Source: Actinomycetota bacterium (GTDB lineage: Bacteria; Actinomycetota; Actinomycetes; S36-B12). From it: a DNA stretch of 42,956 bases. The first letter of the stretch is position 1. Every line of letters begins with the position of its first letter. A model generated the notes under the pieces. The model searched no databases. It was not told the DNA's origin and worked only from the letters and a program-made list of their open reading frames with translations. The stretch is from the NCBI GenBank assembly GCA_030652695.1, contig JAUSQD010000106.1:1-42956 (forward strand), written 5' to 3'. The translations under genes and the position numbers were made by a program. Of this stretch, positions 7,582 to 24,620 are shown piece by piece.

Positions 7582-8196
7582 CTACGCGGAGGGAGCCTGG
7601 AGTTCTGCAGCGCCGAAGGACACTGAGAACCGGTCGCACCAGATGGTCACACTCGTGAGCTTTGAAAGATTGGCCTTAGCCGGGATCTTGTAGTTCTGGC
7701 TTCCCTTGTTCCCCTTGAGCGCTCCAAGGTCCACGTAGGCGCCATCGTCAAAGACAAACCAGCCACTTGGGCCTTCAATGACCGGTGCGTCGGTCAGCCA
7801 GACCTTGAGGTCAGGCCCATTGCTGGTGTCAAGATTCTCGATGCGCAGCACTCGCGAGCCATCGGCCAGGCTGATGATCTTGGCGGTCCCAGAGGTCCCG
7901 TGTTCATGACTGATGAACTTCCCAGTGGTCAGCACCTTGGCCGCCTTGGTGGCGGGTGCAGGTGAGGATGCGGCCGAAGGAGCAGCCGACCGCGAGGGCT
8001 CACGCGAAGGGGCCGGCGATGTCGTTGGGCTGGCAATGGCTTCGACGGGCGCGCTTGCCGCTATCGGGGAGGGTTCATTGACTGTCGTGTCGGTGAACAA
8101 TTTCCAGGGCTGGAACAAGTACATCCCCACGGTCAGCGCCCCCACGGCGATGATGGCGACTGGAACCAGAATCATTGGGCGAAAGAACGACTTCAC
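7582..8196 (-). CDS. Membrane-anchored DM13 domain protein
   Basis: The C-terminal region reads GKFISHEHGTSGTAKIISLADGSRVLRIENLDTSNGPDLKVWL ... VTIWCDRFSVSFGAAEL, which matches the DM13 pattern. It has an N-terminal TM helix and a Pro/Ala/Ser linker. I prefer the GTG at 8196 (GGAG 5 nt upstream) over the ORF-track ATG at 8289. Confidence 0.7.
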   Translation of the reverse strand: MKSFFRPMILVPVAIIAVGALTVGMYLFQPWKLFTDTTVNEPSPIAASAPVEAIASPTTSPAPSREPSRSAAPSAASSPAPATKAAKVLTTGKFISHEHGTSGTAKIISLADGSRVLRIENLDTSNGPDLKVWLTDAPVIEGPSGWFVFDDGAYVDLGALKGNKGSQNYKIPAKANLSKLTSVTIWCDRFSVSFGAAELQAPSA

Positions 8197-8388
8197 GTGA
8201 GCTCCTCTGGTGGATGCGGGCGCAAGTGGAGCTCCCACGCGGCCTTGGACGTGCAATGCAGAGTATGCGTTCCCAGATCCAGAACCCAAAAAATCAAACT
8301 GGCGATGATTGACACCAATCCGCCCCTGCCGTGGCTACGAACTCCCCTGTGAAAGCACCACCCATCACTCATCCACTGGGAGTCACTT

Positions 8389-9435: not shown

Positions 9436-9443
9436 TCAGCTTG

Positions 9444-9479
9444 GGAGGTGGTGGTGAGCCCATGCTCATCGCCACCTCC
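9444..9479 (+). other. Intercistronic stem-loop between the DUF4331 gene and the TPR gene
   Basis: GGAGGTGGTG (9444-9453) pairs with CGCCACCTCC (9470-9479), giving 10 bp including one G-U pair. An inner GAGC/GCTC pairing lies within the 16-nt loop. No T-tract follows. Confidence 0.35.
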
Positions 9480-9521
9480 ACCCCAGTTTCGAAATGAGAC
9501 CAAAGCCGAGAGGTCACCACC

Positions 9522-11033: not shown

Positions 11034-12655
11034 AGCGGCGGATCGCCTCTGCGATGCTCGGCACAGTTGCCGCAGGCGCATTCGCCGCAATAGCGATGGC
11101 ACCGGTCGCCTCTGCGCATCCGCTGGGCAACTTCACCCACAACACCTACGTGGGCTTTGCGATCAGCCCAGATCGCATCCAAGCCGATCACGTGCTTGAT
11201 CTGGCCGAGATTCCCAGCTTCCAGGCGCGCAGTGGCATGGACGCCAATGGCGACGGATCCCCATCGGCCGCCGAATCCCAGGCTTGGGCAGATGCTCGGT
11301 GCCTGGCAGCTGCGAGCCAGATCAAGGCATCGACAGATCTGGGAGCAGTGAACTGGTCAGTCGGCAAATCAACCATCACCTTTCCGCAGGGCCAGGCCGG
11401 ACTGTCCACCACGCGGCTGGTCTGCGCATATGAGGCGGCGATTGCTGATGCCAGTTCATTCAGCGCAGTCGTGTCAATTGAAGAGGGCCGCACCGGATGG
11501 CATGAGATCACGGCTCGAGGCGAGGGCGTTCGCCTCAGCGCCGACGTGCCCACCACATCAACGAGTGCCCGTCTGACCGCCTACCCAGTTGATGCCAGTC
11601 CAGCGGACTTCACCACTGTTCAGGCGCGGTGGAACGGCGCCGCTCCAGTTGCTGCAGGCACGACCACTCAAGAAGTCCAAGCCCCAGCTCCAGCCGTTGA
11701 GTCAACTACCGCTGCCGCAGCCACGACGATCGCTCCCTTTGGTCTGGACGGACCTACACAGGCCTTCACCAACCTCATCAGCGAGCAGGACCTGACTGTG
11801 GGCTTTGGGCTCCTGGCGTTGTTGATCGCGATCGGGCTGGGGGGGCTGCACGCTTTGGCCCCAGGTCACGGAAAGACCTTGATGGCTGCCTCGCTGATTG
11901 GCACCAACGGACGCAAGCGTGATGCCGTGGTGCTGGGTGCTTCGGTCACCACAGCACACACTGCAGGTGTTGTAGCCCTGGCGCTGGTGCTTTCGATCTC
12001 ATCCGCATTCGCTGCCGAATCGACCTACCCGTGGCTGGGATTGTTCAGCGCTGTGCTTGCAATCGGCGTTGGTGTCAGCTTGTTGCGCCAGGCTCGGCGG
12101 GGCGGGGGATTGGGCCACCACCACGGTCTCGGCGGTGGACACTCACACGGCACCCACGCACATGTTCATCACGACCACGACGATCATCATGACCACGGTT
12201 CAGATCATCCGCACCCGCATGACGAGTCACCTCACCCGCACCCTCACGCACACCCACACGAACAGACGGCCGGCTCCTTGGCCCTGGCCACGTCAGTGTC
12301 AGCTGCTCCGGCAGTCACGACGACTCCCCGCAACCGCCGCATCATCGCGCTGGGTTTGGCCGGTGGCATGGTTCCCTCCCCGTCGGCGGTGGTCATTCTG
12401 CTGGCTGGATTTGCACTGGGGCGTGCGTGGTTCGCCTTGCTTTTGGTGTTGGCGTACGGGATCGGCATGGCACTGACCCTTTGCTTCACTGGTCTGCTGC
12501 TGGTACACGCCGGCAATCTCTCAGAGCGCGTCGTCGCAGGAACTGCAGTGCCGCGTCCGGTTGCCGCCGTACTGAAGCATTTGCCGTTGATCGCTGCGAT
12601 CACCGTCGTTGCCGCTGGCATCTGGCTCGCAGTGCGGAGTCTTGTCGCCCTGTAG
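11030..12655 (+). CDS. RcnA/NicO-type nickel/cobalt transporter family protein fused to an N-terminal ectodomain, with a His-rich loop
   Basis: The signal peptide ends in VASA. An ectodomain of about 240 aa begins HPLGNFTHNTY. The membrane core carries GLHALAPGHGKTLMAA. A His-rich loop (GHHHGLGGGHSHGTHAHVHHDHDDHHDHGSDHPHPHDESPHPHPHAHPH) splits the core. The start overlaps the upstream stop as GTGA. Confidence 0.7.
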   Translation: MKRRIASAMLGTVAAGAFAAIAMAPVASAHPLGNFTHNTYVGFAISPDRIQADHVLDLAEIPSFQARSGMDANGDGSPSAAESQAWADARCLAAASQIKASTDLGAVNWSVGKSTITFPQGQAGLSTTRLVCAYEAAIADASSFSAVVSIEEGRTGWHEITARGEGVRLSADVPTTSTSARLTAYPVDASPADFTTVQARWNGAAPVAAGTTTQEVQAPAPAVESTTAAAATTIAPFGLDGPTQAFTNLISEQDLTVGFGLLALLIAIGLGGLHALAPGHGKTLMAASLIGTNGRKRDAVVLGASVTTAHTAGVVALALVLSISSAFAAESTYPWLGLFSAVLAIGVGVSLLRQARRGGGLGHHHGLGGGHSHGTHAHVHHDHDDHHDHGSDHPHPHDESPHPHPHAHPHEQTAGSLALATSVSAAPAVTTTPRNRRIIALGLAGGMVPSPSAVVILLAGFALGRAWFALLLVLAYGIGMALTLCFTGLLLVHAGNLSERVVAGTAVPRPVAAVLKHLPLIAAITVVAAGIWLAVRSLVAL

Positions 12656-12741
12656 ACCAGCGCGCCTGGGAAGCACCACGTCGAATGGCCGATATTCGGA
12701 CAGATCACATCTGCTCACGAATCATCTGGGCGACAGCAGGG

Positions 12742-14226
12742 GTGATAAACGTTTACTCTGGTCCAGTGAGATCCCGCTCGGCAGCGCCACAACAGTCAGG
12801 CTTCTCGCGTCTTTGGTGGGCAACAGCTATCGGCGGAGGCATCGCAATCGTGGCGATTGCGATCTTGCCTGTTGACTCATTTCAGCGTTCGTTTGTGGCT
12901 CGCGGACTAGGTATCGCGGCCATTGCTCTGTTCTTCTATGCAATGACATCACTGCCTTCAGCCGTGCGCAAGATCTGGCTCTGGGTCGGGGTATTTCTCG
13001 TCATCACCGTGATCGCTGACATGATCTTTGACTACCAGGCGCTGGTCTTGGAAGTTCGGCCCTTCCCGGGCATCACGGATGTCCTGTACATCTCGGCATT
13101 CATCTGCGCAGTGACAGGTCTCATCAAGCTGTCTCGCTTGTTGAATCCTCGTGCAGATGTTGCCGCCTGGATTGACATCTCAATCATGGTGATTGCTGCC
13201 TCCGCATTCATCGGAATCTTCGTGATCAACTCAATGTGGGAAACGAGTGAAGTCTTCAGCATCACCAGTGCTCTGGATTTAATCTACCCACTGCTTTCAC
13301 TTCTTCTGCTGACTGCATTGGTGCGCTTGTTCATTCTGCCGCACTCACGAAATATTGCCATCACATTGCTCGGTGCATCATGTGTGTGCTTCCTGGCGTG
13401 CGATTTGATTTTCAGCAACCAGCTCATTGTGGGACGCACACCTGTCGTCGCCATTGAGGTGCTGTGGGCAGCAGCGCTCATCTGCCTGCCTCTCGCAGTC
13501 ATGTCGCCCGGAGCCTCGCAGTTCACGCCGGTTGACTCAAGACGAGCGAGCGAGGTCACCCCGACTCGACAGGTGCTCATCGGCGTGAGCGCGATTGGCG
13601 TCCCAGCAGTGGTGCTCGTGGAACTCCTGCTGACTGGGACTCTGGTGGCGAATTGGCTGCTCCCAGTGATCATCGTGATGGTTGCGCTTGTGCTGTTGCG
13701 GCTGCACCTGCTGCTGCGCGCTTCACAGCGACAGACAACAGCCCTCGCGGCTCTGGCCTTCACCGACGCACTCACCGGCCTGCCCAATAAGCAGGGCTGG
13801 GATCTTCGCGTGCAAGAGCTGCTTTCGCAAGTGCGCGAAGGCAGCGATGTATGCACAATTGCGATGCTCGACATTGACAATTTTACTGGGCATCGCGAAT
13901 CGAAATCACAACACCAGGTTGACCTGCTCTTGATTTCCGCCAGCCTTGCCTGGCTTGCGGAGTTGTCCGTCGAAGATGTGCTGGCCAGATGCGGCATGGA
14001 CGAGTTTGCACTCTTGATTCGACGCTCGTCCCTTGCAGAAACTCAGGAGGTCTTGCGCCGAGTCCTGCGTTCAACTCCAGCTGACCTTTCGGTCTCGGTC
14101 GGCGCCGCGCTGCTTCGTCAGGACGAAGACCCAGCTCAAGCCCAGGCACGCGCCTCCAGCGCGCTGTATGCGGCGATGGCCGAGGTCCAGCCCATGTCAG
14201 ACATTGAGCAGCCCATTCCTAGCTAA
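12742..14226 (+). CDS. Polytopic membrane protein with a degenerate C-terminal GGDEF domain (CGMDEF)
   Basis: It has about 9-10 TM helices, then DALTGLPN, MLDIDNF, RCGMDEFALL, SVGAA and ALYAAM. I chose the GTG at 12742 because the start context (cagcaggg GTG ..aaac.tttactctg) is duplicated at the paralog's start at 14268. The ORF-track start at 12427 lies inside the upstream gene. Confidence 0.7.
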   Translation: MINVYSGPVRSRSAAPQQSGFSRLWWATAIGGGIAIVAIAILPVDSFQRSFVARGLGIAAIALFFYAMTSLPSAVRKIWLWVGVFLVITVIADMIFDYQALVLEVRPFPGITDVLYISAFICAVTGLIKLSRLLNPRADVAAWIDISIMVIAASAFIGIFVINSMWETSEVFSITSALDLIYPLLSLLLLTALVRLFILPHSRNIAITLLGASCVCFLACDLIFSNQLIVGRTPVVAIEVLWAAALICLPLAVMSPGASQFTPVDSRRASEVTPTRQVLIGVSAIGVPAVVLVELLLTGTLVANWLLPVIIVMVALVLLRLHLLLRASQRQTTALAALAFTDALTGLPNKQGWDLRVQELLSQVREGSDVCTIAMLDIDNFTGHRESKSQHQVDLLLISASLAWLAELSVEDVLARCGMDEFALLIRRSSLAETQEVLRRVLRSTPADLSVSVGAALLRQDEDPAQAQARASSALYAAMAEVQPMSDIEQPIPS

Positions 14227-14267
14227 GCCCGCACATTTCACCCCAAAACAGGGGGGCAGCAGGCAGG

Positions 14268-15755
14268 GTGTCAAACCTTTACTCTGAGCACGTGACATCA
14301 CGCCAATCGCTTGCGGACACCAATGGCTTCTCGCGCCAGTGGTGGATCACCGCAATTGGCGGGGCATTGGTCCTGGTTTCGCTTGCCTTCATTGACGTGG
14401 ACTCTGTCGAGAGAGCGGTGCTTGGTCGTGTCGCGGGCATGGTGGCGAGCGTCATCCTGCTGGGCGCCATCTTGACCATGCCAAAATCAGTCAGATCAGT
14501 GTGGTTGTGCATGGGCACCTTCTTGTTGCTCACGGCTATCGCTGACGTGATCTACGACTATCAAGACCTGATACTGGAGATATCGGCATTCCCCGGTATT
14601 GCCGACGGGTTCTACCTGGTGTCCTACATCTTTGCGATTACTGCGCTGTTCCTGCTCGCCCGCAAGATGAATCCTGGCGCTGACTTGTCGTCATGGATCG
14701 ACATTCTGATCATGTTCGTCGCGGCCTGCGCAATCGTCGGGGCCTTTGTGATCGCGCCTGGCTGGACTTCGACTACGCAGATGGATCTGCCAACCATTTT
14801 GTGGCTGACCTATCCCCTCCTCGATCTCGTGCTGCTGGCAGCACTGACTCGCTTGCTGATGCTCCCGCACGCGCGCAACCCTGCCATCAGTCTGCTGGCA
14901 GTTTCCATGGCACTCTTCCTTGCCTACGACTTGCTGTTCAACAACCAGTTGCTGTCTGCCGACTGGACCCCTGCCAATGCGATGGAGTTGGTCTGGTCGG
15001 CTGCCTACCTCTGCCTTGCGCTGGCCGCATTGTCCCCGGGAGCACGGCAGTTCGTGCCCGTGGATCCTTCACGCGTAGGCGTGGTGACCACCACTCGGCA
15101 ACTCATGATCGGGATTGCCGTGCTGGCAGTGCCGGCCATCATCCTTCTGGAACTGAGCATCGCAGGCGAAGTGGTGTTGTACTGGCTGGTGCCTGGGATC
15201 GTGCTCTTGCTCGCTCTTGTGCTGATCCGGATGCACTTATTGCTGCGCACCTCACAGCGACAGGCCTCTGCGTTGGACGAGCTTGACCGAAAGGATCTCC
15301 TTACTGGTCTACCGAATCGCACCACGTGGAACACTCAACTCAGTTCACGAGTCTCATCCACGTCGGAGACTGGCACGGTGATCACGATCGCCATTGTGAG
15401 CATCGACAATTTCACTGAATTGCGGCAGGCCAAGAGCCAGCACATTGGTGATCTCCTGATCATCTCCGCCACGATCGCCTGGCTCGGCGAACTCACATCG
15501 ACCGATGTGCTCGCGAAGTACACGGACAATGAGTTTGCCGTCCTCATTCAACGCGATTCTGTCGCGCAGACTCAGGAAGTCCTGCGGCGCCTGCTCCGGG
15601 CAAGCCCGCAGGGCATGCACGTTTCCTCCGGTGCTGCACTCCTGCGCGCTGACGAGGAACCGGTTGAAGCCGAAAGACGAGCAGCAAAATCACTGCGTGC
15701 ATCGCAATCCGGCAGCGCGATTCAGTCCGCGTTGGATGAGAACATCACGAACTGA
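14268..15755 (+). CDS. Paralogous polytopic membrane protein with a more degenerate GGDEF domain (YTDNEF)
   Basis: It has the same architecture as the upstream gene and aligns with it along its full length by eye. Its motifs are DLLTGLPN, IVSIDNF, KYTDNEFAVL, SSGAA. Confidence 0.7.
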   Translation: MSNLYSEHVTSRQSLADTNGFSRQWWITAIGGALVLVSLAFIDVDSVERAVLGRVAGMVASVILLGAILTMPKSVRSVWLCMGTFLLLTAIADVIYDYQDLILEISAFPGIADGFYLVSYIFAITALFLLARKMNPGADLSSWIDILIMFVAACAIVGAFVIAPGWTSTTQMDLPTILWLTYPLLDLVLLAALTRLLMLPHARNPAISLLAVSMALFLAYDLLFNNQLLSADWTPANAMELVWSAAYLCLALAALSPGARQFVPVDPSRVGVVTTTRQLMIGIAVLAVPAIILLELSIAGEVVLYWLVPGIVLLLALVLIRMHLLLRTSQRQASALDELDRKDLLTGLPNRTTWNTQLSSRVSSTSETGTVITIAIVSIDNFTELRQAKSQHIGDLLIISATIAWLGELTSTDVLAKYTDNEFAVLIQRDSVAQTQEVLRRLLRASPQGMHVSSGAALLRADEEPVEAERRAAKSLRASQSGSAIQSALDENITN

Positions 15756-15760
15756 TCGCC

Positions 15761-17794
15761 TCAGGGAGTGGAAAGCACGGAGACGAGCAGCGGCGCCAGA
15801 TTCTTGCTGGCACCGATCGAGATGTGTCCCGCATCGCGATACAGATAGAGGTCGCCAATTTGTGTCGCGCATTGGTCTTGCGGGCAGAAATAGACGCGAG
15901 GATCGAAGATGCGTGCTCCAGTCGCTCGAGCAACCGCTTCAATTCCCGTGCGCGAGGCCTGCTGATTCTGATCGGCAACGGAGCGCGGCATTGCAGACCT
16001 CAATTGCGAACCGCTGGCAATCTCCAGCGCCGAGAACTGGCGCGGGTCGGCCGCCAAGGGCTCAGCAAAGTACGGCACATCCTGAGCCAGGATCACCCGA
16101 TGGCCCGAATCCTGCAACTGCCTGACCGTTGACTCAAGCCCGCTTCGAAGATTGGCAACCTTGCTTCGCGCTTCATTTGTCACTGCATCAGCCGTGAGTC
16201 CCGCTGAGAACACCGAAGAATTCCAGTAGACACTTGAACTGGACAAGATGACATCTCCTGGTGGCGCAGACTCCAGCCACTTCAGGGTCTTCTGCACAAA
16301 GGGCCGGCACTTGGCAAGACGTGCCGCCGACGATTTGAAGTGCACATCAATGAACGGGCAGGCGTTCGCCGTCCCGATGGTCAGCGGCCTTCCAGCAGCC
16401 GTTGCAGCACTTATGGCCGCCTCGCTCAAATGATCTGCGTGCGAGTCACCGATGAGGTAGATGGGCGATCCAGATGCCTGGGCGTTCCAGAGGCAAGTCC
16501 TGGGTTTGCGCTCACTGGGCGCTATGGACTCATTGCATCCGGCGGCATTGCCTGCATGCATGGGAGACACGGCAGCGATGAAGTCTTGAACGCGAGGGTT
16601 CCAGAAGCCATTCTCCGCAGCTGACCACAGGATCAGCGCCAACGCCATTGGCGGAACCATCGTGAGTGCGACCAGCCGAGCCATCCGCGGCTTGCTCACA
16701 TCGCGAAGGCTGCGGATTGGCTGTTCAAGCCACTGATACGAAGCGATGGAAGGCAACAGAGATGCCACCGCGGCAATGAAGGCGATGCCTGGCGTGTTTG
16801 GCCACAACATCAGCGCGAAAACGATGCACGGCCAATGCCAGAGGTACCACGAATAAGAGATGTTGCCGACCGCTACGAAGGGAGAACGCCCAAGGAAGCG
16901 ACTCACGGCATTGCCTTCATGCATGCCGCAAGCGAGCAGCAGCACGGTGCTGACGACCGGAATGATCGTCATCGGTCCGGGCCACACTGTCGTGTCATTG
17001 ACAAGCCACAGGGATGCAGCAAGGCCGACTATTCCCAAGATTCCGAATATCAATGCCATCACTCGCGAGATGCGCAGCTCGACCTTGGTGGCAGCAAGAG
17101 CGAGCAAGGCGCCGACTGCAAACTCCCAAGCGCGGCTCAATGGACCATAGAAGCCACCAAGCCACTCAGGCATGAAGGGAATGCGATGACCACGTGCCTC
17201 CAGCATTGCGATCGCAAAGGACAGCACAGCGACCCCACCGACCAAGGCAGCAGGAATCCAAGGCACTCTTGCCTTCTTGGCCAGTTTCCATCCCAGGAAA
17301 AGCAAGAGAGGAAACACCAAGTAGAACTGCTCTTCAACTGACAATGACCAGGTATTCAGGAGTGGGTTGGCCGCCGCCGGCGCATCGAAATATCCACCTG
17401 TCGTTTCGGCGATCACAAAGTTCGCCGAGAGAAGCAGCGCGCCAATACCGGTCTGCGCTGCAATCTGTTGGTCGCCCATGGGCGACTGGATCAGCACAGA
17501 CACGATGACCACCACTGCCACCAGGAGCGCGAGTGCTGGGGTCAGCCTTCGAAATCGGCGAGCATAGAAAGTCGAGAATTTCAGACTCTGCGTCCGGACC
17601 CATTCACGAGCGAGCATTGCGGTGATGACGAATCCAGAGATGACGAAGAACACGTCGACCCCAAGAAAGCCGCCAGGCACTGGCAATCCGGCATGAAATG
17701 CGACAACAAACCCCACGGCCAGAGCCCTCAGGCCCTGGATGTCCTCACGGCGGTTGTCTGGCATGGAGGACGAGGGCAGGGACTGCGGCGTCAT
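15761..17794 (-). CDS. Acyltransferase family 3 (OafA/OatA-like) fused to a C-terminal SGNH domain
   Basis: The N-terminus reads DIQGLRALAVGFVVAFHA and is followed by about 10 TM helices. The C-terminal extracytoplasmic domain carries IGDSHADH (SGNH block I). Confidence 0.8.
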   Translation of the reverse strand: MTPQSLPSSSMPDNRREDIQGLRALAVGFVVAFHAGLPVPGGFLGVDVFFVISGFVITAMLAREWVRTQSLKFSTFYARRFRRLTPALALLVAVVVIVSVLIQSPMGDQQIAAQTGIGALLLSANFVIAETTGGYFDAPAAANPLLNTWSLSVEEQFYLVFPLLLFLGWKLAKKARVPWIPAALVGGVAVLSFAIAMLEARGHRIPFMPEWLGGFYGPLSRAWEFAVGALLALAATKVELRISRVMALIFGILGIVGLAASLWLVNDTTVWPGPMTIIPVVSTVLLLACGMHEGNAVSRFLGRSPFVAVGNISYSWYLWHWPCIVFALMLWPNTPGIAFIAAVASLLPSIASYQWLEQPIRSLRDVSKPRMARLVALTMVPPMALALILWSAAENGFWNPRVQDFIAAVSPMHAGNAAGCNESIAPSERKPRTCLWNAQASGSPIYLIGDSHADHLSEAAISAATAAGRPLTIGTANACPFIDVHFKSSAARLAKCRPFVQKTLKWLESAPPGDVILSSSSVYWNSSVFSAGLTADAVTNEARSKVANLRSGLESTVRQLQDSGHRVILAQDVPYFAEPLAADPRQFSALEIASGSQLRSAMPRSVADQNQQASRTGIEAVARATGARIFDPRVYFCPQDQCATQIGDLYLYRDAGHISIGASKNLAPLLVSVLSTP

Positions 17795-17962
17795 TCATCC
17801 TCCAACAGCACGACAGCCCTCATGGCAACACGAAGTCTATTGACTGGCCCAGATGTGACGAGCGCGACAACCGGTGTTGTGGAGGCAGGCCAATCGCGAC
17901 AATGACGTACGCTGAATGACCGGCCGTTGGCCACACCCCACCAAATTTGCAGGAGCACAGTC

Positions 17963-19573
17963 TTGACCGAGGTACACGGCCGCAAGCGAGTCGAGGTCAC
18001 GGCTGCGGCCGTCACCACGATCGGCGTGATCATCGCCGTGTTCGCTCTGCTGATGGTCGGTCTCTCAAATTCGGCACGGGCTGGTGAAGCACTGCCAGGT
18101 GACAGCCCAGCACCTGGCGCCTCTGACTCCTCCTCCCCAAGCGCGACGCCCGATCCCACCGCCAGCGGCTCGACATCACAAATCAAGAACGTGGTCATGT
18201 TGCTTGCAGACGATCTGGACTGGACGGCGTTCAATCAGGTGCCGCGCCTTGCGGCCTTGAAGAATGCCGGAACTACTCTCACCGACTTCGTCGTGACCAA
18301 TTCGCTTTGCTGCCCCTCACGCACTTCCTTCATGCGCAGTCAATTCGTGCACAACCATCGCGTGATTTCCAATGTGGCCGAAACCGGCGGCGGCTGGCCA
18401 AAGTTCTATGCACGTGGCCTGCAGAAGGACTGCCTGCCCACCTGGCTTCAGGATGCAGGGGTCAACACCTCACTGTTTGGCAAGTACTTGAATGGATTTC
18501 CGATTGGCACACCTTCGGAGAACTACATTCCCCCGGGCTGGGACTACTTCGAAACCTCAACCTCAAAGAATCAGGCATATGAGGGATTCAACTACACGCT
18601 GAACGTCAATGGGACTCTGGAAAAGTACGGCTCAGCACCCAATGAGTTTCTCAACGACGTGCTGACTCTGGATGCAGCGCAGTACCTCTCAACAGCGCAA
18701 ACACCTTTCTTCATGCTCTACGCCTCATACAACCCTCATACTCCCTTCCCTGCCTCACCACAGAACACTCAAACGCACCTGACGGATGTCCAACCACGCG
18801 TCCCGTCCTTCAATGCCAAGGGCACCAATGAAGTGAGCTGGCTGGCAGATCTGCCAGCATTGACGGCCAAGCGTGTGGACAATCTCGACAATCTGTGGCG
18901 CAAGCGCCTGCGATCAGCAGAGTCAGTTGCTGACTCCTACGACGCACTCCGAGCGCAGCTCCAAGCTTCGGGCAAGCTCGATGAGACGCTCATCATTGTG
19001 ACGTCCGACAACGGGTATCACGCAGGAGTGCATCGACTGTCGACCGGCAAGCAGTCGGCATTCCGCGAGGACGCTGTAGTGCCAGCGGTCTTCATTGGGC
19101 CTGGCATTGCCCAGGGCGCAACGATCAGCAAGACGACGTCCATGGTTGATCTCGCGCCGACAATCAGCGACATCTTCCAAGCCCCGACTCCCAGTTTTGT
19201 CGATGGTCGCAATCTGATGCCGCTGCTGAATGGCCAGGCAGACGCGCCTTGGCGGACGGCCACGCTCACCGAGAGTCTCTCGCGGACCCAGCCAGGTGAT
19301 CCCGACTATTCACGTGTCGTGCCACCCAACTTCCACGCTCTTCGAAGTCAGCAGTGGCTCTATGTCGAGTACGTCAATCGCGAGGTCGAGCTCTACGACC
19401 TGGTGAATGATCCCTACGAGATGAGCAACATTGCCCGCACAACGAATCCGGCGATCCTGGCTCAACTCCACGCTCAGCTCGACGCGATGAAGACATGCAC
19501 AGGGGAGAGCTGTCGCGTTGCCGACAGCATGCCCAACGGAACCATTAGTTCGCCAGCATTACTCGTTCAATGA
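17963..19573 (+). CDS. Membrane-anchored Cys-type (formylglycine-dependent) sulfatase
   Basis: Sulfatase motifs are LLADDLDW, LCCPSRTSFMRSQF (CxPSR), TSDNGYH and GKQ. It has an N-terminal TM helix and a Ser/Pro linker. I prefer the TTG at 17963 (AGGAG 7 nt upstream). The ORF-track ATG is at 17927. Confidence 0.8.
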   Translation: MTEVHGRKRVEVTAAAVTTIGVIIAVFALLMVGLSNSARAGEALPGDSPAPGASDSSSPSATPDPTASGSTSQIKNVVMLLADDLDWTAFNQVPRLAALKNAGTTLTDFVVTNSLCCPSRTSFMRSQFVHNHRVISNVAETGGGWPKFYARGLQKDCLPTWLQDAGVNTSLFGKYLNGFPIGTPSENYIPPGWDYFETSTSKNQAYEGFNYTLNVNGTLEKYGSAPNEFLNDVLTLDAAQYLSTAQTPFFMLYASYNPHTPFPASPQNTQTHLTDVQPRVPSFNAKGTNEVSWLADLPALTAKRVDNLDNLWRKRLRSAESVADSYDALRAQLQASGKLDETLIIVTSDNGYHAGVHRLSTGKQSAFREDAVVPAVFIGPGIAQGATISKTTSMVDLAPTISDIFQAPTPSFVDGRNLMPLLNGQADAPWRTATLTESLSRTQPGDPDYSRVVPPNFHALRSQQWLYVEYVNREVELYDLVNDPYEMSNIARTTNPAILAQLHAQLDAMKTCTGESCRVADSMPNGTISSPALLVQ

Positions 19574-21827
19574 TGTTGCGGGCCGCTTGTCCATCATCGA
19601 AGCCGCAGAACCGCTGCCGGAACTCGTCCAGCCGTTCAATGCTTTCCTGACTCTCAAATTCGCTGTTCACAAAGATCCTGACCAGTTCCGCCTGATTGAT
19701 CGCCACTGCCCCAGGAGGGCTGGCGAGCAGATCGAAGTAGGTGCCACGTGCTTCCTGGTACGCCTCCCAGTCGTCGGCAAAAATCACGATAGGGCGGCCA
19801 AGAACCGCGTAGTCAAACATGACACTTGAATAGTCAGTGATCAACAGGTCGGCCGCGAGAAAGCAGTCAACAATCGATGGCAATGACGATCCATCGATGA
19901 CTCGTCCGGAGGCCACGAGGTCGTTGATCCTTGGGCCAAGGCTGGTGGTGTGGTGCGCACGGACAATGAACACAAAGTCTTCTGAGACCTGCTCGATCAG
20001 ATCAGCGAAGTCAATTCGCAGGGATGTGTCACCCGCGACGTCGCGATACGTGGGCGCGTACAACACCACCTTCTGATCAGGTCGGACGCCAAGGCGAGCC
20101 TTGGCGTCCAGGACATCTTCAGGCGATGCATTCACCAGCACGTCATTGCGCGGATACCCGTATTCAAGCCAGGTGTACGAGCACGGATACGCGTGTCCCC
20201 ACATCTCCGTTGAGTAGGGGTTCGAACTCACAGCAAAATCCCAGTTGTCGCTGCGACGCAGGAGATCAACGAACTCCTGACGACTGCGAGCTGCATCGGT
20301 CGCAACGATCTGATTTCCTTTGCGCGGAGCCACCCGTTTGGGATCGATGGCATTGCTTGCCGCGTCGTGTCCCATCACATCCAGCCCACAGTGCTTGAGC
20401 GGGGTTCCGTGCATGGTCTGGATCATCTGCTGTCCCGGACGTTTGACGAAAGCTCCCGGGAAGTTGACGTTGTTGACCAAGTACTTGGCACGCGCAAGCA
20501 CCACCCATTGCTTGAGGGAGTTCGGCGCGACATGGGCGACGCCATCCGGCAGGCGCGATGCCTTGTCCTTCTCCATGATCCATACGGCTTTGAGGTGCGG
20601 GGCAACATCAGGCAGGGCATCGAAAATGGCCTTGGGATTGCAGCCGAAGCCAGTGCCCCAGTATTCAGAGAAGACCACGAGATTGGGATCCATCGGTCGC
20701 ATCCGAGCGAACACGTAGTAGAGGCGGCCCACGGCACGAACCTTGCGCAAGGTGCGCCGAACTGGCCAGTAGATACGGCCAAGGAAACGTCGGGTGGGGA
20801 CTCGCTTCTGATCCACCCAGCTGTACAAGGCAAAGGATGCATAGGACTTCTTGCGGAAGAGTCGAGCTCGGATATTGCTCGGCCGATTCTGCCTGTGATC
20901 ACCCTCGGAAGCCGGAGTGTGCTGCTCGACTGACAACGCGGATTGCTCGAAGAAGCGTCGTCGTTCAGACTTCGCGAGCCTGCCGCCGTGTTGAAGGATG
21001 ATCACGTAGTGATTCACCATGATGTCGAAGAGGTGTCGGCGCATGCCCTCACTGATTTCAAGCCGATCAACTTCAGCAAAGACCCGGTCGTACTGCGCAA
21101 AGACATCAAAGTGTCTCGGGCTAGTGGTGCCAAGTATGTTGCCCGATCTGCGCTGTCGATAGAGCAAGACGACGCGGTTCAATGAGACGGCCGTGCGTGC
21201 GTTCAACAGCACCGTGTACGTGTACGAGATGTCCTCGTACAGCCCCGTTTGAAAATGCACGTCAAGCTGTTGCAGGAAATCCCGTCGATATGCCTTGTTG
21301 CAGGCGATCGGAAGAAGGTTGAACAGCCGCCTGTGATCCTGCGGGCGAAACACTCCCACTGAGAGATTGGCCAGCAGTTCGGCACCCCAGCTGACGGCCT
21401 GTCGACCGTCCCACCACACGCGTGAGTAGTTGTAGATCAACACCTCTGGCAGGTTGCTTGCGCGAAGTTTGTCGGCGATGGCCTTCAGCGATCCTGGGGC
21501 GAAGGAGTCGTCACCGTCAAGAAACAGGATGTAGTCACCCGTCGCGGCGGCCACTCCAGCATTTCTGGCCAGACCCAAGCCCACATTGGATTCCAGGTGA
21601 AGGGGGCGGATGCGGGAGTCAGTACTTGCCATCTCATCAACGATGAGGCCGCTGTGGTCAGGCGTGCAGTCATTGACGACCACGATTTCGAAATCTGAGA
21701 AGTTCTGGTCGATCACCGATTCCAAGCAGGCTCGAATGTACGACTGCACGTTGTACACCGGAACGATGATGGAGAAGAACGCCATGAGGGTTGAGGATAG
21801 GGCTTGTGAACCGGCCCTCCTGCGCAT
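19545..21827 (-). CDS. Fusion of a family-2 glycosyltransferase (N-terminal) and a TagF-like CDP-glycerol/ribitol phosphotransferase (C-terminal)
   Basis: The GT2 part reads FSIIVPVYNV...VVNDCTPD...FLDGDD. The TagF-like part reads VLYAPTYRD and LITDYSSVMFDY. The real start may be the ATG at 21785 (MAFFSIIVPVYN). Confidence 0.8.
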   Translation of the reverse strand: MRRRAGSQALSSTLMAFFSIIVPVYNVQSYIRACLESVIDQNFSDFEIVVVNDCTPDHSGLIVDEMASTDSRIRPLHLESNVGLGLARNAGVAAATGDYILFLDGDDSFAPGSLKAIADKLRASNLPEVLIYNYSRVWWDGRQAVSWGAELLANLSVGVFRPQDHRRLFNLLPIACNKAYRRDFLQQLDVHFQTGLYEDISYTYTVLLNARTAVSLNRVVLLYRQRRSGNILGTTSPRHFDVFAQYDRVFAEVDRLEISEGMRRHLFDIMVNHYVIILQHGGRLAKSERRRFFEQSALSVEQHTPASEGDHRQNRPSNIRARLFRKKSYASFALYSWVDQKRVPTRRFLGRIYWPVRRTLRKVRAVGRLYYVFARMRPMDPNLVVFSEYWGTGFGCNPKAIFDALPDVAPHLKAVWIMEKDKASRLPDGVAHVAPNSLKQWVVLARAKYLVNNVNFPGAFVKRPGQQMIQTMHGTPLKHCGLDVMGHDAASNAIDPKRVAPRKGNQIVATDAARSRQEFVDLLRRSDNWDFAVSSNPYSTEMWGHAYPCSYTWLEYGYPRNDVLVNASPEDVLDAKARLGVRPDQKVVLYAPTYRDVAGDTSLRIDFADLIEQVSEDFVFIVRAHHTTSLGPRINDLVASGRVIDGSSLPSIVDCFLAADLLITDYSSVMFDYAVLGRPIVIFADDWEAYQEARGTYFDLLASPPGAVAINQAELVRIFVNSEFESQESIERLDEFRQRFCGFDDGQAARNIIERVMLAN

Positions 21828-21871
21828 GTTTGGTCAGGAGTTCCACAAGTGCGCTGTAGTAGGCTCAGCGG

Positions 21872-22768
21872 GTGAATTTGGGATCCGATGACTGCCTCAA
21901 TCCAGTACTCGTAGGTGGCACCGGCCGCAGCGGATCGACCATTCTCGGTCAGATTCTTGGCCATCATCCTGAGCTCATGCTCACTGATCCACCCGAGATC
22001 CGATTCCTGGCAAATGACCACGGCGTCGCTGAAGCACTGACCATGGCAACGGGCTCACTGCGTCACCGCCTGCGCTCCAAGCGCGAGGCACGCCTGTGTC
22101 TTGAGCGAACCAAGACACTCTGGTTCTGGCGGGCGGCCAAAATTGGCCTGCACACCTCGATCACCATCGAAGAGCTGAATGCCCTGGGTGAGACCTATCT
22201 CGCGGAGTTCGGCAAGGATCCGGTTGCCGCATCGCAGAAGTTCACGTTCGCGATCATGTCGAAGGTGGCCCGTGAGGCCAAGGGTCGACGCTGGGTGGAC
22301 ACCACGCCAGCCAATGCCCGCATCTCCGAGCAGATTGAGCCGATCTACCCGCAGTCACAGGTGATTGCGATGATCCGCGACGGGCGCGATGTGGCGGCGT
22401 CTTTTGTCGAGCAGAATTTCGGCCCGAATGAGATCTTCGCCTCCCTGCGCCAATGGGAGAAGCGCACCCTTCTGATTCACCAGGCCACACTGGCAAGCGC
22501 CCCGGGACGCTGCATCATCGTGGACATGCTTGATCTGGTGGATCGTGAGCGAGATCAGACCCTGCAGCGCATTTGCGACTTCCTCAATGTGCCGGTGGAT
22601 TCAGGGATGAAGTCGTGGTTTGACGACACCGTGAATGCAGAGAACGCGCACGTCGGTCGGTGGCGCACACAGTTCGACTCAGCGACCACGCTGGAAATCG
22701 ATCGCGTCTATGGCGAAATGGTCGAGCAATTGCGCGACCAAGGAGTCCAGATCCCCCTTGTTTCCTGA
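21872..22768 (+). CDS. PAPS-dependent sulfotransferase family protein
   Basis: The 5'-PSB-like motif is VGGTGRSGSTILG and the 3'-PB-like motif is MIRDGRDVAASF. It has no signal peptide, so it is probably cytoplasmic. The start is GTG and is uncertain by a few codons. Confidence 0.7.
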   Translation: MNLGSDDCLNPVLVGGTGRSGSTILGQILGHHPELMLTDPPEIRFLANDHGVAEALTMATGSLRHRLRSKREARLCLERTKTLWFWRAAKIGLHTSITIEELNALGETYLAEFGKDPVAASQKFTFAIMSKVAREAKGRRWVDTTPANARISEQIEPIYPQSQVIAMIRDGRDVAASFVEQNFGPNEIFASLRQWEKRTLLIHQATLASAPGRCIIVDMLDLVDRERDQTLQRICDFLNVPVDSGMKSWFDDTVNAENAHVGRWRTQFDSATTLEIDRVYGEMVEQLRDQGVQIPLVS

Positions 22769-22828
22769 GACGATGCAATCAGGGGCAGGCGAACCGGCCC
22801 GAAATGAAGGCAACAGGACTTCTAAGGT

Positions 22829-23770
22829 ATGGAGTCCCATGAAAAAAGTAGGCAATCGATGAGCGAGACCACGGAGACTGTGAGCCGACCGGTTCAGACC
22901 TTCTTGCCGCATCGCGCTGGCCTGCCCCGCCTCAGCACCTATTTCGTCACTCTGTGGCGCCGACGTCACTTTGCGATCGAACTCTCGCGAGCCTCGATGC
23001 GAGCCGCACACACCAACACCTTCTTCGGGCAGTTCTGGCTGGTCATCAGCCCAGCTCTGAATGCCGTCGTGTACTTCCTCCTGGTCAACATCATCCGCGG
23101 CGGCAACAGCGGTCCGGACTTCTTCCTTCACTTGCTGGCCGGCTTGTTCGCCTTCAACTTCATCTCAGCCACGATGAGCGCTGGCGCGAATTCGGTCGTC
23201 AGTGGCGGCAGTCTCGTGCTCAACACCGCTTTCCCACTGTTATTGCTGCCATGGTCTGCGCTGCGCACGGCCTTCTTCCGCTTCCTGCCCTCACTCATCA
23301 TCCTGTTGGCCTTCTTCAGCTACTTTGCCTTCATCGGACCCCACCCGGTGGCCTGCGATGCGGCTGGCGCCTGTGTCGAGCTCAACACGGTTCACTTCAG
23401 CCCAGTTCAGCTCATGGCCATCCCAGCATTCATGCTGATATTCGTCTTCGCAGCTGGTCTGGCTGCACTCATGGCAACCGTGCAGGTCTACTTCCGCGAC
23501 ACCACGCAGTTCTTGCCGTACGCCACCAGAATCTGGCTCTACTTGTCACCGGTGCTGTACTACGCCGACCAACTGCAGCCGTGGATGCTGAAGCTGGAAT
23601 ATTTCAATCCTCTGTTCCCCATGCTCGGCATCTGGACCGACACGCTTGCTCGCGGAATCATGCCGCCCATGAGTTGGTGGCTGGGCTCAGCAGCCTGGGC
23701 ATTTGGGACTCTGCTGATCGGAACCTTCTACTTCATTTCGCGCGAACGAGAGTTTGCGGTGCGCATTTGA
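22829..23770 (+). CDS. ABC-2 type polymer-export permease (TagG/Wzm-like)
   Basis: It has about 6 TM helices. The N-terminal segment is typical of this family (LWRRRHFAIELSRASMRAAHTNTFFGQFWLVISP). It lies immediately upstream of the cognate ATPase. Confidence 0.75.
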   Translation: MESHEKSRQSMSETTETVSRPVQTFLPHRAGLPRLSTYFVTLWRRRHFAIELSRASMRAAHTNTFFGQFWLVISPALNAVVYFLLVNIIRGGNSGPDFFLHLLAGLFAFNFISATMSAGANSVVSGGSLVLNTAFPLLLLPWSALRTAFFRFLPSLIILLAFFSYFAFIGPHPVACDAAGACVELNTVHFSPVQLMAIPAFMLIFVFAAGLAALMATVQVYFRDTTQFLPYATRIWLYLSPVLYYADQLQPWMLKLEYFNPLFPMLGIWTDTLARGIMPPMSWWLGSAAWAFGTLLIGTFYFISREREFAVRI

Positions 23771-23792
23771 CCAGGACCGTGAATCGAGGTGA

Positions 23793-24620
23793 GTGCTGAT
23801 GGAAGATGAGATGGGCGAACCGATCCCACAAATCGCGCACCGCTCCGTGTCCAACGAAGTGGCGATCACCGTCGCTGATCTTGATGTCACCTACCGGACG
23901 ACCATCGAGAAGCGCCCAACACTGAAGCAGGCCATCGTTCGTCTTGGCCGTGGCAAGAGATCCGTGCGTACAGTCGAGGCGCTCAAAGACGTGTCCTTCC
24001 AGGTCAATCGCGGCACGGTGCTTGGCATCATCGGTCACAACGGTGCGGGCAAGAGCACGCTCATGCGCACGGTGGCCGGGATCGTTCCGCCAACGCGAGG
24101 CAAAGTTGAGGTGGTAGGCCGCACCAGCACTCTGCTCTCACTCGGCGTGGGATTCAATCGCCAGCTGACCGGTCGCGAGAACGTGATCCTTGGTGGGCTG
24201 GCGGCTGGACTGACCAAGGATGAGCTCGAGGATCGTTACGATCGCATCGCTGAGTTCGCCGACATTGGTGACTTCATTGAAATGCCAATGCGGTCGTACT
24301 CATCTGGCATGGCTGCTCGACTCGCATTCAGCGTCGCTGTTCATCTGGATCCTGACATTCTGTTGATCGACGAGGCGCTTTCAACCGGCGATGCTGTGTT
24401 CAAGGAGAAGGCCACTGAGCGTATGCAGCAACTGGTTGACAATTCCAGCACCATGCTCCTGATCTCGCATGCGCTCCGCACCATCATCAACATGAGCACC
24501 GAGTGCATCTGGCTGGATCATGGCAAGTTGATGATGCGTGGAAATCCTGAAGAAGTGGTCGATGCCTACACCGAGTACATGCACGTGAAGAAGACTTCAG
24601 CAGTGCTCAACGACATGTGA
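23793..24620 (+). CDS. ABC transporter ATP-binding protein (TagH/Wzt-like)
   Basis: Walker A is GHNGAGKST, the signature is YSSGMAARLAF and Walker B is ILLIDEAL. The ATG at 23799 is an equally plausible start. Confidence 0.85.
   Translation: MLMEDEMGEPIPQIAHRSVSNEVAITVADLDVTYRTTIEKRPTLKQAIVRLGRGKRSVRTVEALKDVSFQVNRGTVLGIIGHNGAGKSTLMRTVAGIVPPTRGKVEVVGRTSTLLSLGVGFNRQLTGRENVILGGLAAGLTKDELEDRYDRIAEFADIGDFIEMPMRSYSSGMAARLAFSVAVHLDPDILLIDEALSTGDAVFKEKATERMQQLVDNSSTMLLISHALRTIINMSTECIWLDHGKLMMRGNPEEVVDAYTEYMHVKKTSAVLNDM

What the first reader, a model, noticed from the sequence alone, without database searches (positions are those of the whole stretch)
15761..24620. Wall-glycopolymer cluster combining TagF/TagGH-type machinery with a sulfotransferase and an exported sulfatase
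Seen, in order:
- an acyltransferase_3-SGNH protein (-)
- a TM-anchored CxPSR sulfatase (+)
- a GT2::TagF-like fusion (-)
- a cytoplasmic sulfotransferase with GxxRSGST and RDGRD motifs (+)
- an ABC-2 permease and its ATPase (+)

Established: TagF-like polyol-phosphate transferases with TagGH-type exporters build and export teichoic-acid-type polymers. Sulfotransferases of this type use PAPS. OafA/OatA-like proteins O-acylate glycans outside the membrane.

Inference: the locus may make a wall polymer that is sulfated in the cytoplasm, exported, O-acylated and then trimmed by a surface sulfatase. That would be a writer and eraser pair for polymer charge. To my knowledge, sulfated teichoic-type polymers are rarely documented, and a dedicated surface sulfatase in the same locus is unusual.
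Basis: partly seen in the sequence, partly recalled or inferred. Interest (0 to 1): 0.65.

Follow-up and report, generated by a model that had tools for sequence, protein, structure and literature searches.

The report
Sulfation cassette in teichoic-acid-like locus
Uncultured freshwater actinobacteria keep a teichoic-acid-type polymerase, a sulfate-adding enzyme and an exported sulfate-removing enzyme side by side next to a polymer exporter, which predicts a sulfated cell-surface polymer of a kind not yet described, though no chemistry has been done.

Summary
All six genes are present at the stated coordinates, with the stated domains and motifs. One correction: the permease is ORF 22829-23770, not the overlapping frame 22954-23799.

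The core is a conserved cassette. Every sulfotransferase of the window's clade (50-82% identity) sits next to a GT2::TagF gene. All 23 loci with enough flank also carry the sulfatase. Flanking genes differ between loci. An ABC-2 exporter is usually adjacent and an AT3-SGNH acyltransferase often is. All hosts are freshwater Actinomycetota MAGs, labelled Ca. Nanopelagicales and similar.

The TagF domain keeps its catalytic motifs. The sulfotransferase has intact PAPS motifs and folds like PAPS sulfotransferases. The sulfatase has a complete formylglycine active site and an N-terminal membrane helix, and its model best matches exo 6-O carbohydrate sulfatases.

A sulfated TagF-type polymer is therefore the best reading, at about 0.5. 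It is inferred, not shown. PAPS-synthesis and FGE genes could not be checked, and the window lacks the rest of a wall-teichoic-acid pathway.

The "eraser" role is weaker. Sulfatase relatives at 50-59% identity sit beside SulP sulfate permeases instead, which suggests sulfate recovery. A sister sulfotransferase clade has no polymer genes nearby.

I found no literature on sulfated teichoic acids. Verdict: new variant of a known kind, moderately interesting.

The parts
15761..17794 (-). AT3-SGNH O-acyltransferase (OatA/OafA/SucT-like). About 9 or more hydrophobic segments plus a C-terminal SGNH domain.
   Evidence: Pfam Acyl_transf_3 2e-25 and SGNH 6e-37. Best NCBIfam hit is SucT, far below its cut-off. 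Hydropathy. Present in 12 of 23 triad loci.
17795..17926 (.). 132-bp divergent intergenic region between the acyltransferase and sulfatase genes (presumed promoters).
   Evidence: ORF coordinates. Not analysed further.
17927..19573 (+). Exported or membrane-anchored Cys-type (formylglycine) S1 sulfatase. The database gene call starts 12 codons downstream (536 aa).
   Evidence: Pfam Sulfatase 1e-38 and SGSH_C. CCPSR motif. Invariant DD, CCPSR, K, H, DN and K across 45 homologues. AF2 pLDDT 87.7 with an N-terminal helix and a disordered linker. Foldseek top hits are exo 6-O-sulfatases 5g2v, 7p24, 7sno and 7lj2.
19545..21827 (-). GT2::TagF-like glycerol-phosphate transferase/polymerase. Its 3' end overlaps the sulfatase 3' end by 29 nt.
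   Evidence: Pfam Glyphos_transf 4e-109 and Glycos_transf_2 2e-34. S. epidermidis TagF 3l7i 4.7e-66, Cps3D 2e-27. HGTPLK, RAHH and DYSSVMFDY align with TagF. NCBIfam TarF 210 bits.
21828..21871 (.). 44-bp divergent intergenic region between the GT2::TagF gene and the sulfotransferase-exporter operon.
   Evidence: ORF coordinates.
21872..22768 (+). Cytoplasmic PAPS-type sulfotransferase (Sulfotransfer_3), clade A.
   Evidence: Pfam 4e-21. Invariant GGTGRSGST and RDGRDxxxS in 63 homologues. AF2 pLDDT 93.4. Foldseek hits at E<=0.001 (25 hits) are all PAPS/PAP-binding sulfotransferase-fold proteins: OLS/CurM ST, TPST2, Stf1/Stf9, NDST, 3-OST. No hydrophobic segment.
22829..23770 (+). ABC-2 (Wzm/TagG-type) permease.
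   Evidence: Pfam ABC2_membrane 4e-8. NCBIfam galactan-export Wzm/RfbD 1.5e-11. At least 5 hydrophobic segments.
23793..24620 (+). ABC ATPase (Wzt/TagH-type), with no C-terminal carbohydrate-binding extension.
   Evidence: Pfam ABC_tran 6e-22. NCBIfam Wzt/RfbE 5e-66, TagH 7e-62 and 9e-53.

Best explanation
The six genes form a module that makes, sulfates, exports and then modifies a glycerol-phosphate-containing, teichoic-acid-like surface glycopolymer.

Proposed steps:
1. On the cytoplasmic face, the GT2::TagF enzyme adds glycerol-phosphate from CDP-glycerol to a lipid-linked acceptor. It probably also adds a sugar through its intact GT2 domain.
2. The adjacent soluble sulfotransferase transfers sulfate from PAPS onto the nascent polymer, probably onto a sugar hydroxyl.
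3. The Wzm/Wzt-type ABC-2 transporter exports the finished chain.
4. Outside the membrane, the AT3-SGNH enzyme O-acylates the polymer.
5. The membrane-tethered formylglycine sulfatase removes sulfate esters from it, either to tune surface charge or to recover sulfate.

Shown: gene identities, intact catalytic motifs, topology, and conserved adjacency of the core triad.
Inferred: the acceptor of the sulfotransferase, the substrate of the sulfatase, and the polymer structure.
For: Synteny:
- 31 loci carry GT2::TagF directly beside a clade-A sulfotransferase.
- 23 of the 23 loci with at least 4.2 kb upstream also carry the sulfatase.
- An ABC-2 permease is nearby in 22.
- Flanks differ between lineages. 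One locus has a transposase beside the cassette. The unit is therefore kept together by more than shared ancestry of a region.
- In relatives the triad lies inside a larger glycopolymer cluster with a second TagF-like gene, GT4 and GT2 enzymes, NTP_transf_3 and CDP-OH_P_transf.

Structure:
- The sulfotransferase model matches only PAPS-type sulfotransferase folds at E<=0.001.
- The sulfatase model best matches exo-acting carbohydrate 6-O-sulfatases.

Topology separates a cytoplasmic 'writer' from an extracytoplasmic sulfatase.

Precedent: Cobetia marina makes a sulfated, glycerol-phosphate-bearing capsule through an ABC-transporter pathway (PMC11766843).
Against: - There is no chemistry, and all hosts are uncultured MAGs.
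- No PAPS-synthesis genes (cysDN/cysC) and no FGE occur in the 43-kb window. An APS-kinase probe found nothing in the 1.38 Mb of held flanks. That result is uninformative for whole genomes.
- Cultivated Nanopelagicales lack complete assimilatory sulfate reduction (PMC12817590).
- The window lacks TagO/A/B/D and LCP genes.
- Sister-clade sulfotransferases at 45-53% identity sit next to Cpn10-like, DUF3618 and CysM/CysO-like genes, with no polymer genes. The acceptor class is therefore not fixed by family membership.
- Sulfatase relatives at 50-59% identity are paired with SulP sulfate permeases rather than with TagF.
Confidence: 0.5

Rival explanations
1. Sulfate-economy reading. The exported sulfatase is not an editor of surface charge. 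It recovers sulfate, from shed or turned-over polymer or from environmental organosulfates. That sulfate is re-imported and used for PAPS. The sulfatase is linked to the sulfotransferase through sulfate supply, not through a regulated writer/eraser cycle.
For: - P0146, 59% identical to the window sulfatase and closer than many triad copies, is divergently paired with a SulP sulfate permease.
- P0203 and P0209 lie in MFS-sulfatase-SulP arrangements next to a Cys/Met PLP enzyme.
- In the NJ tree the P0146 clade nests among triad-linked clades.
- These relatives keep the same N-terminal anchor and linker.
- Genomes with SulP-linked sulfatases also carry a clade-B sulfotransferase. L075 and L090 come from the same assembly, and L005 and L087 from the same contig.
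Against: - There is no SulP gene in the window or next to any triad examined.
- The strict 23/23 adjacency to TagF argues for a polymer-specific role.
- The NJ tree is crude (midpoint root, no support values).
Confidence: 0.25
2. Transient sulfation. Sulfate is added in the cytoplasm as a temporary handle, such as a chain-end cap, an export signal or an activated leaving group. The sulfatase removes it obligatorily after export, so the mature polymer carries little or no sulfate.
For: - The writer is cytoplasmic and the sulfatase extracytoplasmic.
- The sulfatase model resembles exo-acting, end-specific sulfatases.
- The nearest sulfotransferase structures include CurM/OLS ST, which use sulfate as a leaving group.
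- From established knowledge: ABC-transporter-dependent O-antigen systems use terminal caps to end chains.
Against: - The Wzt-type ATPase is only 275 aa, with no C-terminal cap-binding domain.
- I know of no precedent for sulfate caps.
- Some relatives carry a possible second sulfotransferase (motif level only), which suggests extensive rather than terminal sulfation.
Confidence: 0.1
3. The sulfotransferase acts on something other than the TagF product, such as a glycolipid, a small metabolite or a protein tyrosine. The adjacency reflects co-regulation of envelope functions only.
For: - Clade-B homologues (45-53% identity) occur without any glycopolymer genes.
- The best sequence and structure matches are TPSTs, CurM/OLS ST and mycobacterial Stf1/Stf9, not polysaccharide sulfotransferases specifically.
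Against: - 31 of 31 informative clade-A loci have GT2::TagF immediately adjacent.
- In the window-type loci the sulfotransferase heads the exporter operon.
- The transporter is a polysaccharide-type ABC-2 exporter, not a peptide exporter.
- No small peptide ORF is evident in the short intergenic gaps.
Confidence: 0.12
4. The 'sulfatase' is a formylglycine-dependent phosphodiesterase (PMH/PehA-like). It trims or releases the phosphodiester-linked polymer, acting as a teichoicase rather than hydrolysing sulfate esters.
For: - The best PDB sequence hit is a phosphonate monoester hydrolase (4upk, 1.8e-21).
- The best NCBIfam hit is PehA (92 bits, far below its cut-off).
Against: - Those matches cover only the C-terminal third.
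- The whole-fold comparison ranks carbohydrate 6-O-sulfatases first and PMH 22nd.
- Co-conservation with a sulfotransferase, and elsewhere with sulfate permeases, points to sulfate chemistry.
Confidence: 0.04

Closest known systems
Wall teichoic acid pathway of Bacillota (TagF/TarF polymerase + TagGH exporter; S. epidermidis TagF, PDB 3L7I)
   Same: - The TagF domain matches at 4.7e-66, with aligned catalytic His motifs.
- Both have an N-terminal GT2-like domain.
- Both use an ABC-2 exporter of the TagGH/Wzm-Wzt type.
- Both have cytoplasmic tailoring before export.
   Different: - The window has no TagO/TagA/TagB/TagD or LCP genes.
- The tailoring enzymes are a PAPS sulfotransferase and an exported sulfatase. 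Neither is part of any described teichoic acid pathway, to my knowledge and in the searched library.
TagF-like capsule polymerases of Gram-negative group 2 capsules (e.g. Cps3D, PDB 8QOY)
   Same: Multidomain TagF-like polymerases that work with ABC-transporter export to build glycosyl-polyol-phosphate polymers.
   Different: - Similarity is much weaker (2e-27).
- The partner domains differ.
- The envelope is Gram-negative, with KpsMT machinery.
- There is no sulfation module.
Sulfated, glycerol-phosphate-bearing capsule of Cobetia marina KMM 1449 (PMC11766843)
   Same: An ABC-transporter-dependent polymer that carries both sulfate esters and glycerol phosphate, with a sulfotransferase in the cluster.
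   Different: - It is a Gram-negative kps-type locus of about 70 genes with its own PAPS genes.
- The text mentions no sulfatase (0 occurrences).
- No TagF polymerase is reported.
Heparan sulfate 6-O-sulfation and extracellular Sulf1/Sulf2 editing in animals (PMC1892809)
   Same: Logic only. A PAPS-dependent writer acts inside the cell or secretory pathway, and an extracellular formylglycine 6-O-sulfatase remodels the finished polymer. The window's sulfatase model best matches 6-O-sulfatases.
   Different: - No homology beyond the superfamily.
- Sulfs are endo-acting, whereas the best structural matches here are exo-acting.
- The editing role here is untested.
Mycobacterial Stf sulfotransferases / Sulfotransfer_3 enzymes (Stf1, Stf9, CurM ST, TPST)
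   Same: Same fold and same PAPS motifs.
   Different: - TM-scores are only about 0.5-0.6 and identity is at most 20%.
- The acceptors differ (glycolipids, polyketide intermediates, tyrosine).
- None is paired with TagF.

Membership tests
TagF/TarF CDP-glycerol glycerophosphotransferases (PF04464) | Full-length Glyphos_transf domain | tested here: met
   Pfam 4.4e-109 covering profile positions 2-366 of 367. TagF 3l7i 4.7e-66.
TagF/TarF CDP-glycerol glycerophosphotransferases (PF04464) | Catalytic and substrate-binding His residues (TagF HGTPLK and RMHY regions) | tested here: met
   The query's HGTPLK, RAHH and DYSSVMFDY align column-for-column with S. epidermidis TagF. The residue roles come from my knowledge of the TagF structure paper.
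TagF/TarF CDP-glycerol glycerophosphotransferases (PF04464) | Uses CDP-glycerol to extend a lipid-linked polymer | not testable with these tools
   Needs an enzyme assay. TarF is the best NCBIfam match, but at 210 bits against a cut-off of 550.
Wall teichoic acid biosynthetic system | Linkage-unit and precursor genes (TagO, TagA, TagB, TagD) and an LCP ligase in the locus | tested here: not met
   None among the annotated ORFs of the 43-kb window. Relatives have extra TagF-like, GT4, NTP_transf_3 and CDP-OH_P_transf genes. The rest of the genome could not be examined.
S1 formylglycine-dependent sulfatases | C-x-P-x-R motif and the full metal, sulfate-binding and catalytic residue set | tested here: met
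   CCPSR. Invariant D83/D84, C116-R120, K174, H259, D349/N350 and K363 in 45 homologues.
S1 formylglycine-dependent sulfatases | Sulfatase fold | tested here: met
   AF2 pLDDT 87.7. Foldseek 5g2v E 5.7e-29, TM 0.69/0.75.
S1 formylglycine-dependent sulfatases | A maturation enzyme (FGE or anSME) in the genome | not testable with these tools
   None in the window. The whole genome is not available.
PAPS-dependent sulfotransferases (Sulfotransfer_3) | 5'-PSB loop and 3'-PB (R-x7-S) motifs | tested here: met
   G15-T23 (GGTGRSGST) and R169...S177 are invariant in 63 sequences.
PAPS-dependent sulfotransferases (Sulfotransfer_3) | Sulfotransferase fold | tested here: met
   AF2 pLDDT 93.4. All 25 Foldseek hits at E<=0.001 are PAPS/PAP-binding sulfotransferase-fold proteins.
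PAPS-dependent sulfotransferases (Sulfotransfer_3) | PAPS supply (ATP sulfurylase + APS kinase) in the organism | not testable with these tools
   Not in the window. An APS-kinase probe found nothing in the 1.38 Mb of held flanks, which says nothing about whole genomes.
ABC-2 polysaccharide/teichoic acid exporters (Wzm/Wzt, TagGH) | ABC2_membrane permease plus a cognate ATPase encoded together | tested here: met
   Wzt/RfbE 5e-66, TagH 7e-62.
AT3-SGNH O-acyltransferases (OatA/OafA) | N-terminal AT3 membrane domain fused to an SGNH domain | tested here: met
   with hydropathy.

The most novel reading that the evidence does not exclude
Abundant freshwater actinobacteria run a complete sulfation cycle on a wall polymer. 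A cytoplasmic PAPS sulfotransferase writes sulfate onto a TagF-built teichoic-type chain. A surface-tethered 6-O-type sulfatase erases it, and the released sulfate is recaptured (by SulP in related genomes). This would be the first sulfated teichoic-acid-class polymer and the first bacterial counterpart of heparan-sulfate/Sulf editing. It could also matter for phage adsorption, grazing resistance and sulfur budgets in lakes.
Probability: 0.2. Interest if true: 0.8.

Novelty: new variant of a known kind. Interest (0 to 1): 0.58.

Why it matters
- Teichoic-type polymers are known to carry D-alanine, sugars, acyl and pyruvyl groups. I found no report of sulfate on them in the searched library.
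- A conserved cassette that pairs a TagF polymerase with a sulfotransferase and an exported sulfatase predicts a new class of anionic wall modification.
- The hosts are a very abundant group of lake bacteria that has not been cultured.
- The cassette gives three compact, expressible enzymes to test.
- It links envelope chemistry to sulfate handling in lineages whose cultivated relatives cannot assimilate sulfate.
- It offers a candidate determinant of phage or grazer interactions.

Tried and rejected
- ORF 22954-23799 as the permease: no family hit. Rejected in favour of 22829-23770.
- tRNA and Rfam scans of the window: nothing.
- Search for PAPS or FGE genes: none in the window. An APS-kinase probe, using an E. 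coli CysC sequence recalled from memory, found nothing in the 1.38 Mb of held loci. This is uninformative for whole genomes.
- Peptide-tyrosine sulfation (RaxST-like), suggested by the TPST hits: set aside. The transporter is of the Wzm/Wzt type and there is no peptide gene.
- PMH-like phosphodiesterase reading: down-weighted by the fold search.
- The 376-aa neighbour 'unk376' as a second sulfotransferase: it has PAPS-like motifs, but Pfam, NCBIfam, PDB profile search and HHalign were all negative. It remains a lead only.
- Literature searches found nothing directly relevant. I searched for sulfated teichoic acids, for TagF + sulfotransferase + sulfatase together, for Nanopelagicales + sulfotransferase, and for actinomycete wall polymers with sulfate.
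- Whether clade-A genomes also carry a clade-B sulfotransferase could not be decided, because only the best 80 of 147 genome hits were returned.
Full report
**1. Observation**

The window has about 59% G+C throughout. ORF listing and Pfam scans confirm each of the six genes at the coordinates given:
- an AT3-SGNH acyltransferase, 15761-17794(-)
- a Sulfatase + SGSH_C protein, 17927-19573(+)
- a Glycos_transf_2 + Glyphos_transf fusion, 19545-21827(-)
- a Sulfotransfer_3 protein, 21872-22768(+)
- an ABC2_membrane permease, 22829-23770(+)
- an ABC ATPase, 23793-24620(+)

One correction is needed. The overlapping 281-aa ORF 22954-23799 is not a gene product with any family match, and the permease is the other frame.

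The neighbours are two GGDEF proteins upstream and two MFS transporters downstream. The rest of the window encodes unrelated functions: ion channels, DUF4331/TPR, a CopD-CtaG fusion, an L,D-transpeptidase, cydABDC and an ECF sigma factor. The stated boundaries are therefore right. There are no tRNA genes and no Rfam matches.

The gene layout gives four transcription units:
- acyltransferase (leftward)
- sulfatase (rightward)
- GT2::TagF (leftward, overlapping the sulfatase 3' end by 29 nt)
- sulfotransferase-permease-ATPase (rightward)

**2. The individual proteins**

*GT2::TagF.* The C-terminal domain matches S. epidermidis TagF at 4.7e-66 and the capsule polymerase Cps3D at 2e-27. In the alignment, HGTPLK, RAHH and DYSSVMFDY coincide with the TagF motifs. 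The N-terminal GT2 domain also aligns with the N-terminus of TagF itself. The 'fusion' is thus the archetypal TagF architecture. The GT2 part keeps a DGDD motif and resembles TarS/TarP-type and TuaG-type transferases. TarF is the best NCBIfam match, at 210 bits and below its cut-off.

*Sulfotransferase.* It has no hydrophobic segment. It has invariant 5'-PSB and 3'-PB motifs across 63 homologues. Its confident model (pLDDT 93.4) hits only PAPS/PAP-binding sulfotransferase-fold proteins at E<=0.001: OLS/CurM ST, TPST2, Stf1/Stf9, NDST and 3-OST, with TM about 0.5-0.6. It is a real PAPS-type enzyme of a distinct subfamily. Its acceptor cannot be read from the fold.

*Sulfatase.* It has the complete S1 active-site set, invariant in 45 homologues. 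It has an N-terminal helix followed by a disordered Ser/Pro/Thr-rich linker. Its fold best matches exo-acting carbohydrate 6-O-sulfatases: BT4656 GlcNAc-6S, BT3177, and two Gal-6-sulfatases. The sequence-level similarity to phosphonate monoester hydrolases is confined to the C-terminal part.

*Transporter and acyltransferase.* The transporter is of the Wzm/Wzt-TagGH type, and its ATPase has no cap-binding extension. The acyltransferase is OatA/OafA/SucT-like.

**3. Relatives and context**

The sulfotransferase has hundreds of homologues. All those that carry a name come from freshwater Actinomycetota MAGs, labelled Ca. Nanopelagicales, Actinomycetes and the like.

A scan of one genome per species found 147 relatives, of which the best 80 were returned. 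All 80 are MAG or uncultured-isolate records, nearly all labelled as Actinomycetota. tblastn of the six window proteins against these loci splits them cleanly into two clades.

*Clade A* (50-82% identity):
- 31 loci, counting those fetched by exact-protein look-up.
- Every one has GT2::TagF immediately upstream and divergent.
- All 23 loci with at least 4.2 kb of upstream sequence also have the sulfatase convergent behind it.
- 22 have an ABC-2 permease nearby, in two different versions.
- 12 of the 23 clustered loci have the AT3-SGNH gene.

The flanks differ from lineage to lineage. The closest relatives share the window's full order and flanks. In one locus the cassette lies beside a transposase, without an adjacent exporter.

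In more distant relatives the triad sits in the middle of a larger glycopolymer cluster. That cluster includes a second TagF-like gene, GT4 and GT2 enzymes, an NTP_transf_3 nucleotidyltransferase and a CDP-alcohol phosphatidyltransferase. This is good evidence that the three genes work together on a TagF-type product.

*Clade B* (45-53% identity, about 53 loci):
- It is never next to TagF or the sulfatase.
- It follows DUF3618 and a Cpn10-like gene, often with CysM/CysO-like genes downstream.

Very similar sulfotransferases therefore operate outside glycopolymer loci.

**4. The sulfatase family outside the triad**

Homologues at 50-59% identity are found in other settings. In a crude NJ tree, one of them nests among triad-linked clades.
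- P0146 is divergently paired with a SulP sulfate permease.
- P0203 and P0209 lie in MFS-sulfatase-SulP arrangements beside a Cys/Met PLP enzyme.
- P0177 is in an unrelated neighbourhood.

All keep the N-terminal anchor and linker. Two of these genomes also carry a clade-B sulfotransferase. The family is thus repeatedly tied to sulfate import. This makes 'sulfate recovery' a serious alternative, or a complement, to 'charge eraser'.

**5. Mechanism**

The best-supported reading has five steps:
1. GT2::TagF builds a glycerol-phosphate-containing, probably glycosylated, chain on the cytoplasmic face.
2. The sulfotransferase sulfates it with PAPS before export. A soluble PAPS enzyme cannot act outside the cell.
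3. The ABC-2 transporter exports it.
4. AT3-SGNH acylates it outside.
5. The tethered sulfatase removes sulfate from it.

What is shown: gene identity, catalytic competence at the motif and fold level, topology, and conserved linkage.

What is inferred: the acceptor, the sulfatase substrate and the final structure.

What could not be tested: PAPS supply and formylglycine maturation. Neither is encoded in the window, and an APS-kinase probe of all held sequence found nothing. Cultivated Nanopelagicaceae lack complete assimilatory sulfate reduction (PMC12817590). They are low-GC relatives, however, and PAPS synthesis was not addressed there.

The rivals are laid out with their evidence in the corresponding fields. 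They are the sulfate-economy role, transient sulfation, an unrelated acceptor, and a PMH-like phosphodiesterase.

**6. Comparison with what is known, and novelty**

The machinery is a member of the TagF / ABC-2 exporter kind. As a wall-teichoic-acid system, however, it fails the locus-level test in this window, which has no TagO/A/B/D or LCP genes.

The closest chemical precedent is the sulfated, glycerol-phosphate-bearing capsule of Cobetia marina, a Gram-negative kps-type locus with PAPS genes and no sulfatase. A 2026 paper on Actinoplanes states that bacterial sulfated polysaccharides are known essentially from cyanobacteria, and only infers one in an actinomycete.

Searches for sulfated teichoic acids, and for TagF together with a sulfotransferase and a sulfatase, found nothing. 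The library omits most subscription journals, so this is absence in the searched library only.

I rate the finding a new variant of a known kind. It is predicted from sequence, robustly conserved and untested. The polymer-sulfation inference stands at about even odds, and the writer/eraser idea is weakened by the SulP-linked relatives.

Noticed in passing
L002 4713-5846(-); L004 4854-5984(-); L092 8002-8973(+); L091 5512-6660(+) (not in the window): A ~376-aa protein with no Pfam, NCBIfam or PDB match sits beside the sulfatase in 13 triad loci, and about 9 kb from a SulP-sulfatase pair in another genome. Its invariant 'HxGVHKxGTT' and 'R-N-x6-S' motifs resemble the two PAPS-binding motifs of sulfotransferases, so it may be a second sulfotransferase. 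Profile comparisons were negative.
   Followed up: partly
L005 9300-10888 and about 50 other loci (L032-L086): A sister clade of the sulfotransferase (45-53% identity) is preceded by DUF3618 (52 of 53 loci) and by a 125-127-aa Cpn10/GroES-like gene whose stop overlaps the sulfotransferase start. CysM/CysO-like PALP+ThiS genes lie downstream in 23 loci. Its function and acceptor are unknown.
   Followed up: partly
L087 8790-13331; L090 6706-11317; L089 6342-9560: Exported sulfatases of the same family are encoded as MFS-sulfatase-SulP, or divergently from SulP. This suggests a sulfate-release-and-uptake unit in freshwater actinobacteria whose cultivated relatives cannot assimilate sulfate.
   Followed up: partly
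L092 622-8973: A triad variant (46-55% identity) lies next to an rve-type transposase and an NTP_transf_3 gene, with no exporter adjacent and with flanks unrelated to the window's. This is consistent with the triad moving as a cassette.
   Followed up: no
L091 4896-5090: A 65-aa stretch matching the C-terminus of the sulfatase lies just upstream of the unk376 homologue. It looks like a relic of a lost sulfatase gene.
   Followed up: no
window 326-1579 (-): A tyrosine-recombinase (phage integrase family) gene sits at the left end of the window, with no tRNA gene detected anywhere in the window.
   Followed up: no
window 8389-12655 (+): An apparent operon of a DUF4331 protein, a TPR protein and a 541-aa protein with no family match. 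A DM13-domain protein lies divergently upstream (7582-8289).
   Followed up: no
window 12427-15755 (+): Two consecutive membrane proteins with C-terminal GGDEF domains lie directly upstream of the cluster. The same GGDEF neighbour is present in the closest relative (L093) but not in L001.
   Followed up: no
L027, L040, L048, L052 (record titles): Some MAG records carrying these genes are titled 'Bifidobacterium breve', 'Bifidobacteriaceae' or 'Rubrivirga', although their genes are close to those of freshwater Nanopelagicales-type MAGs. These are probably mislabelled submissions.
   Followed up: no
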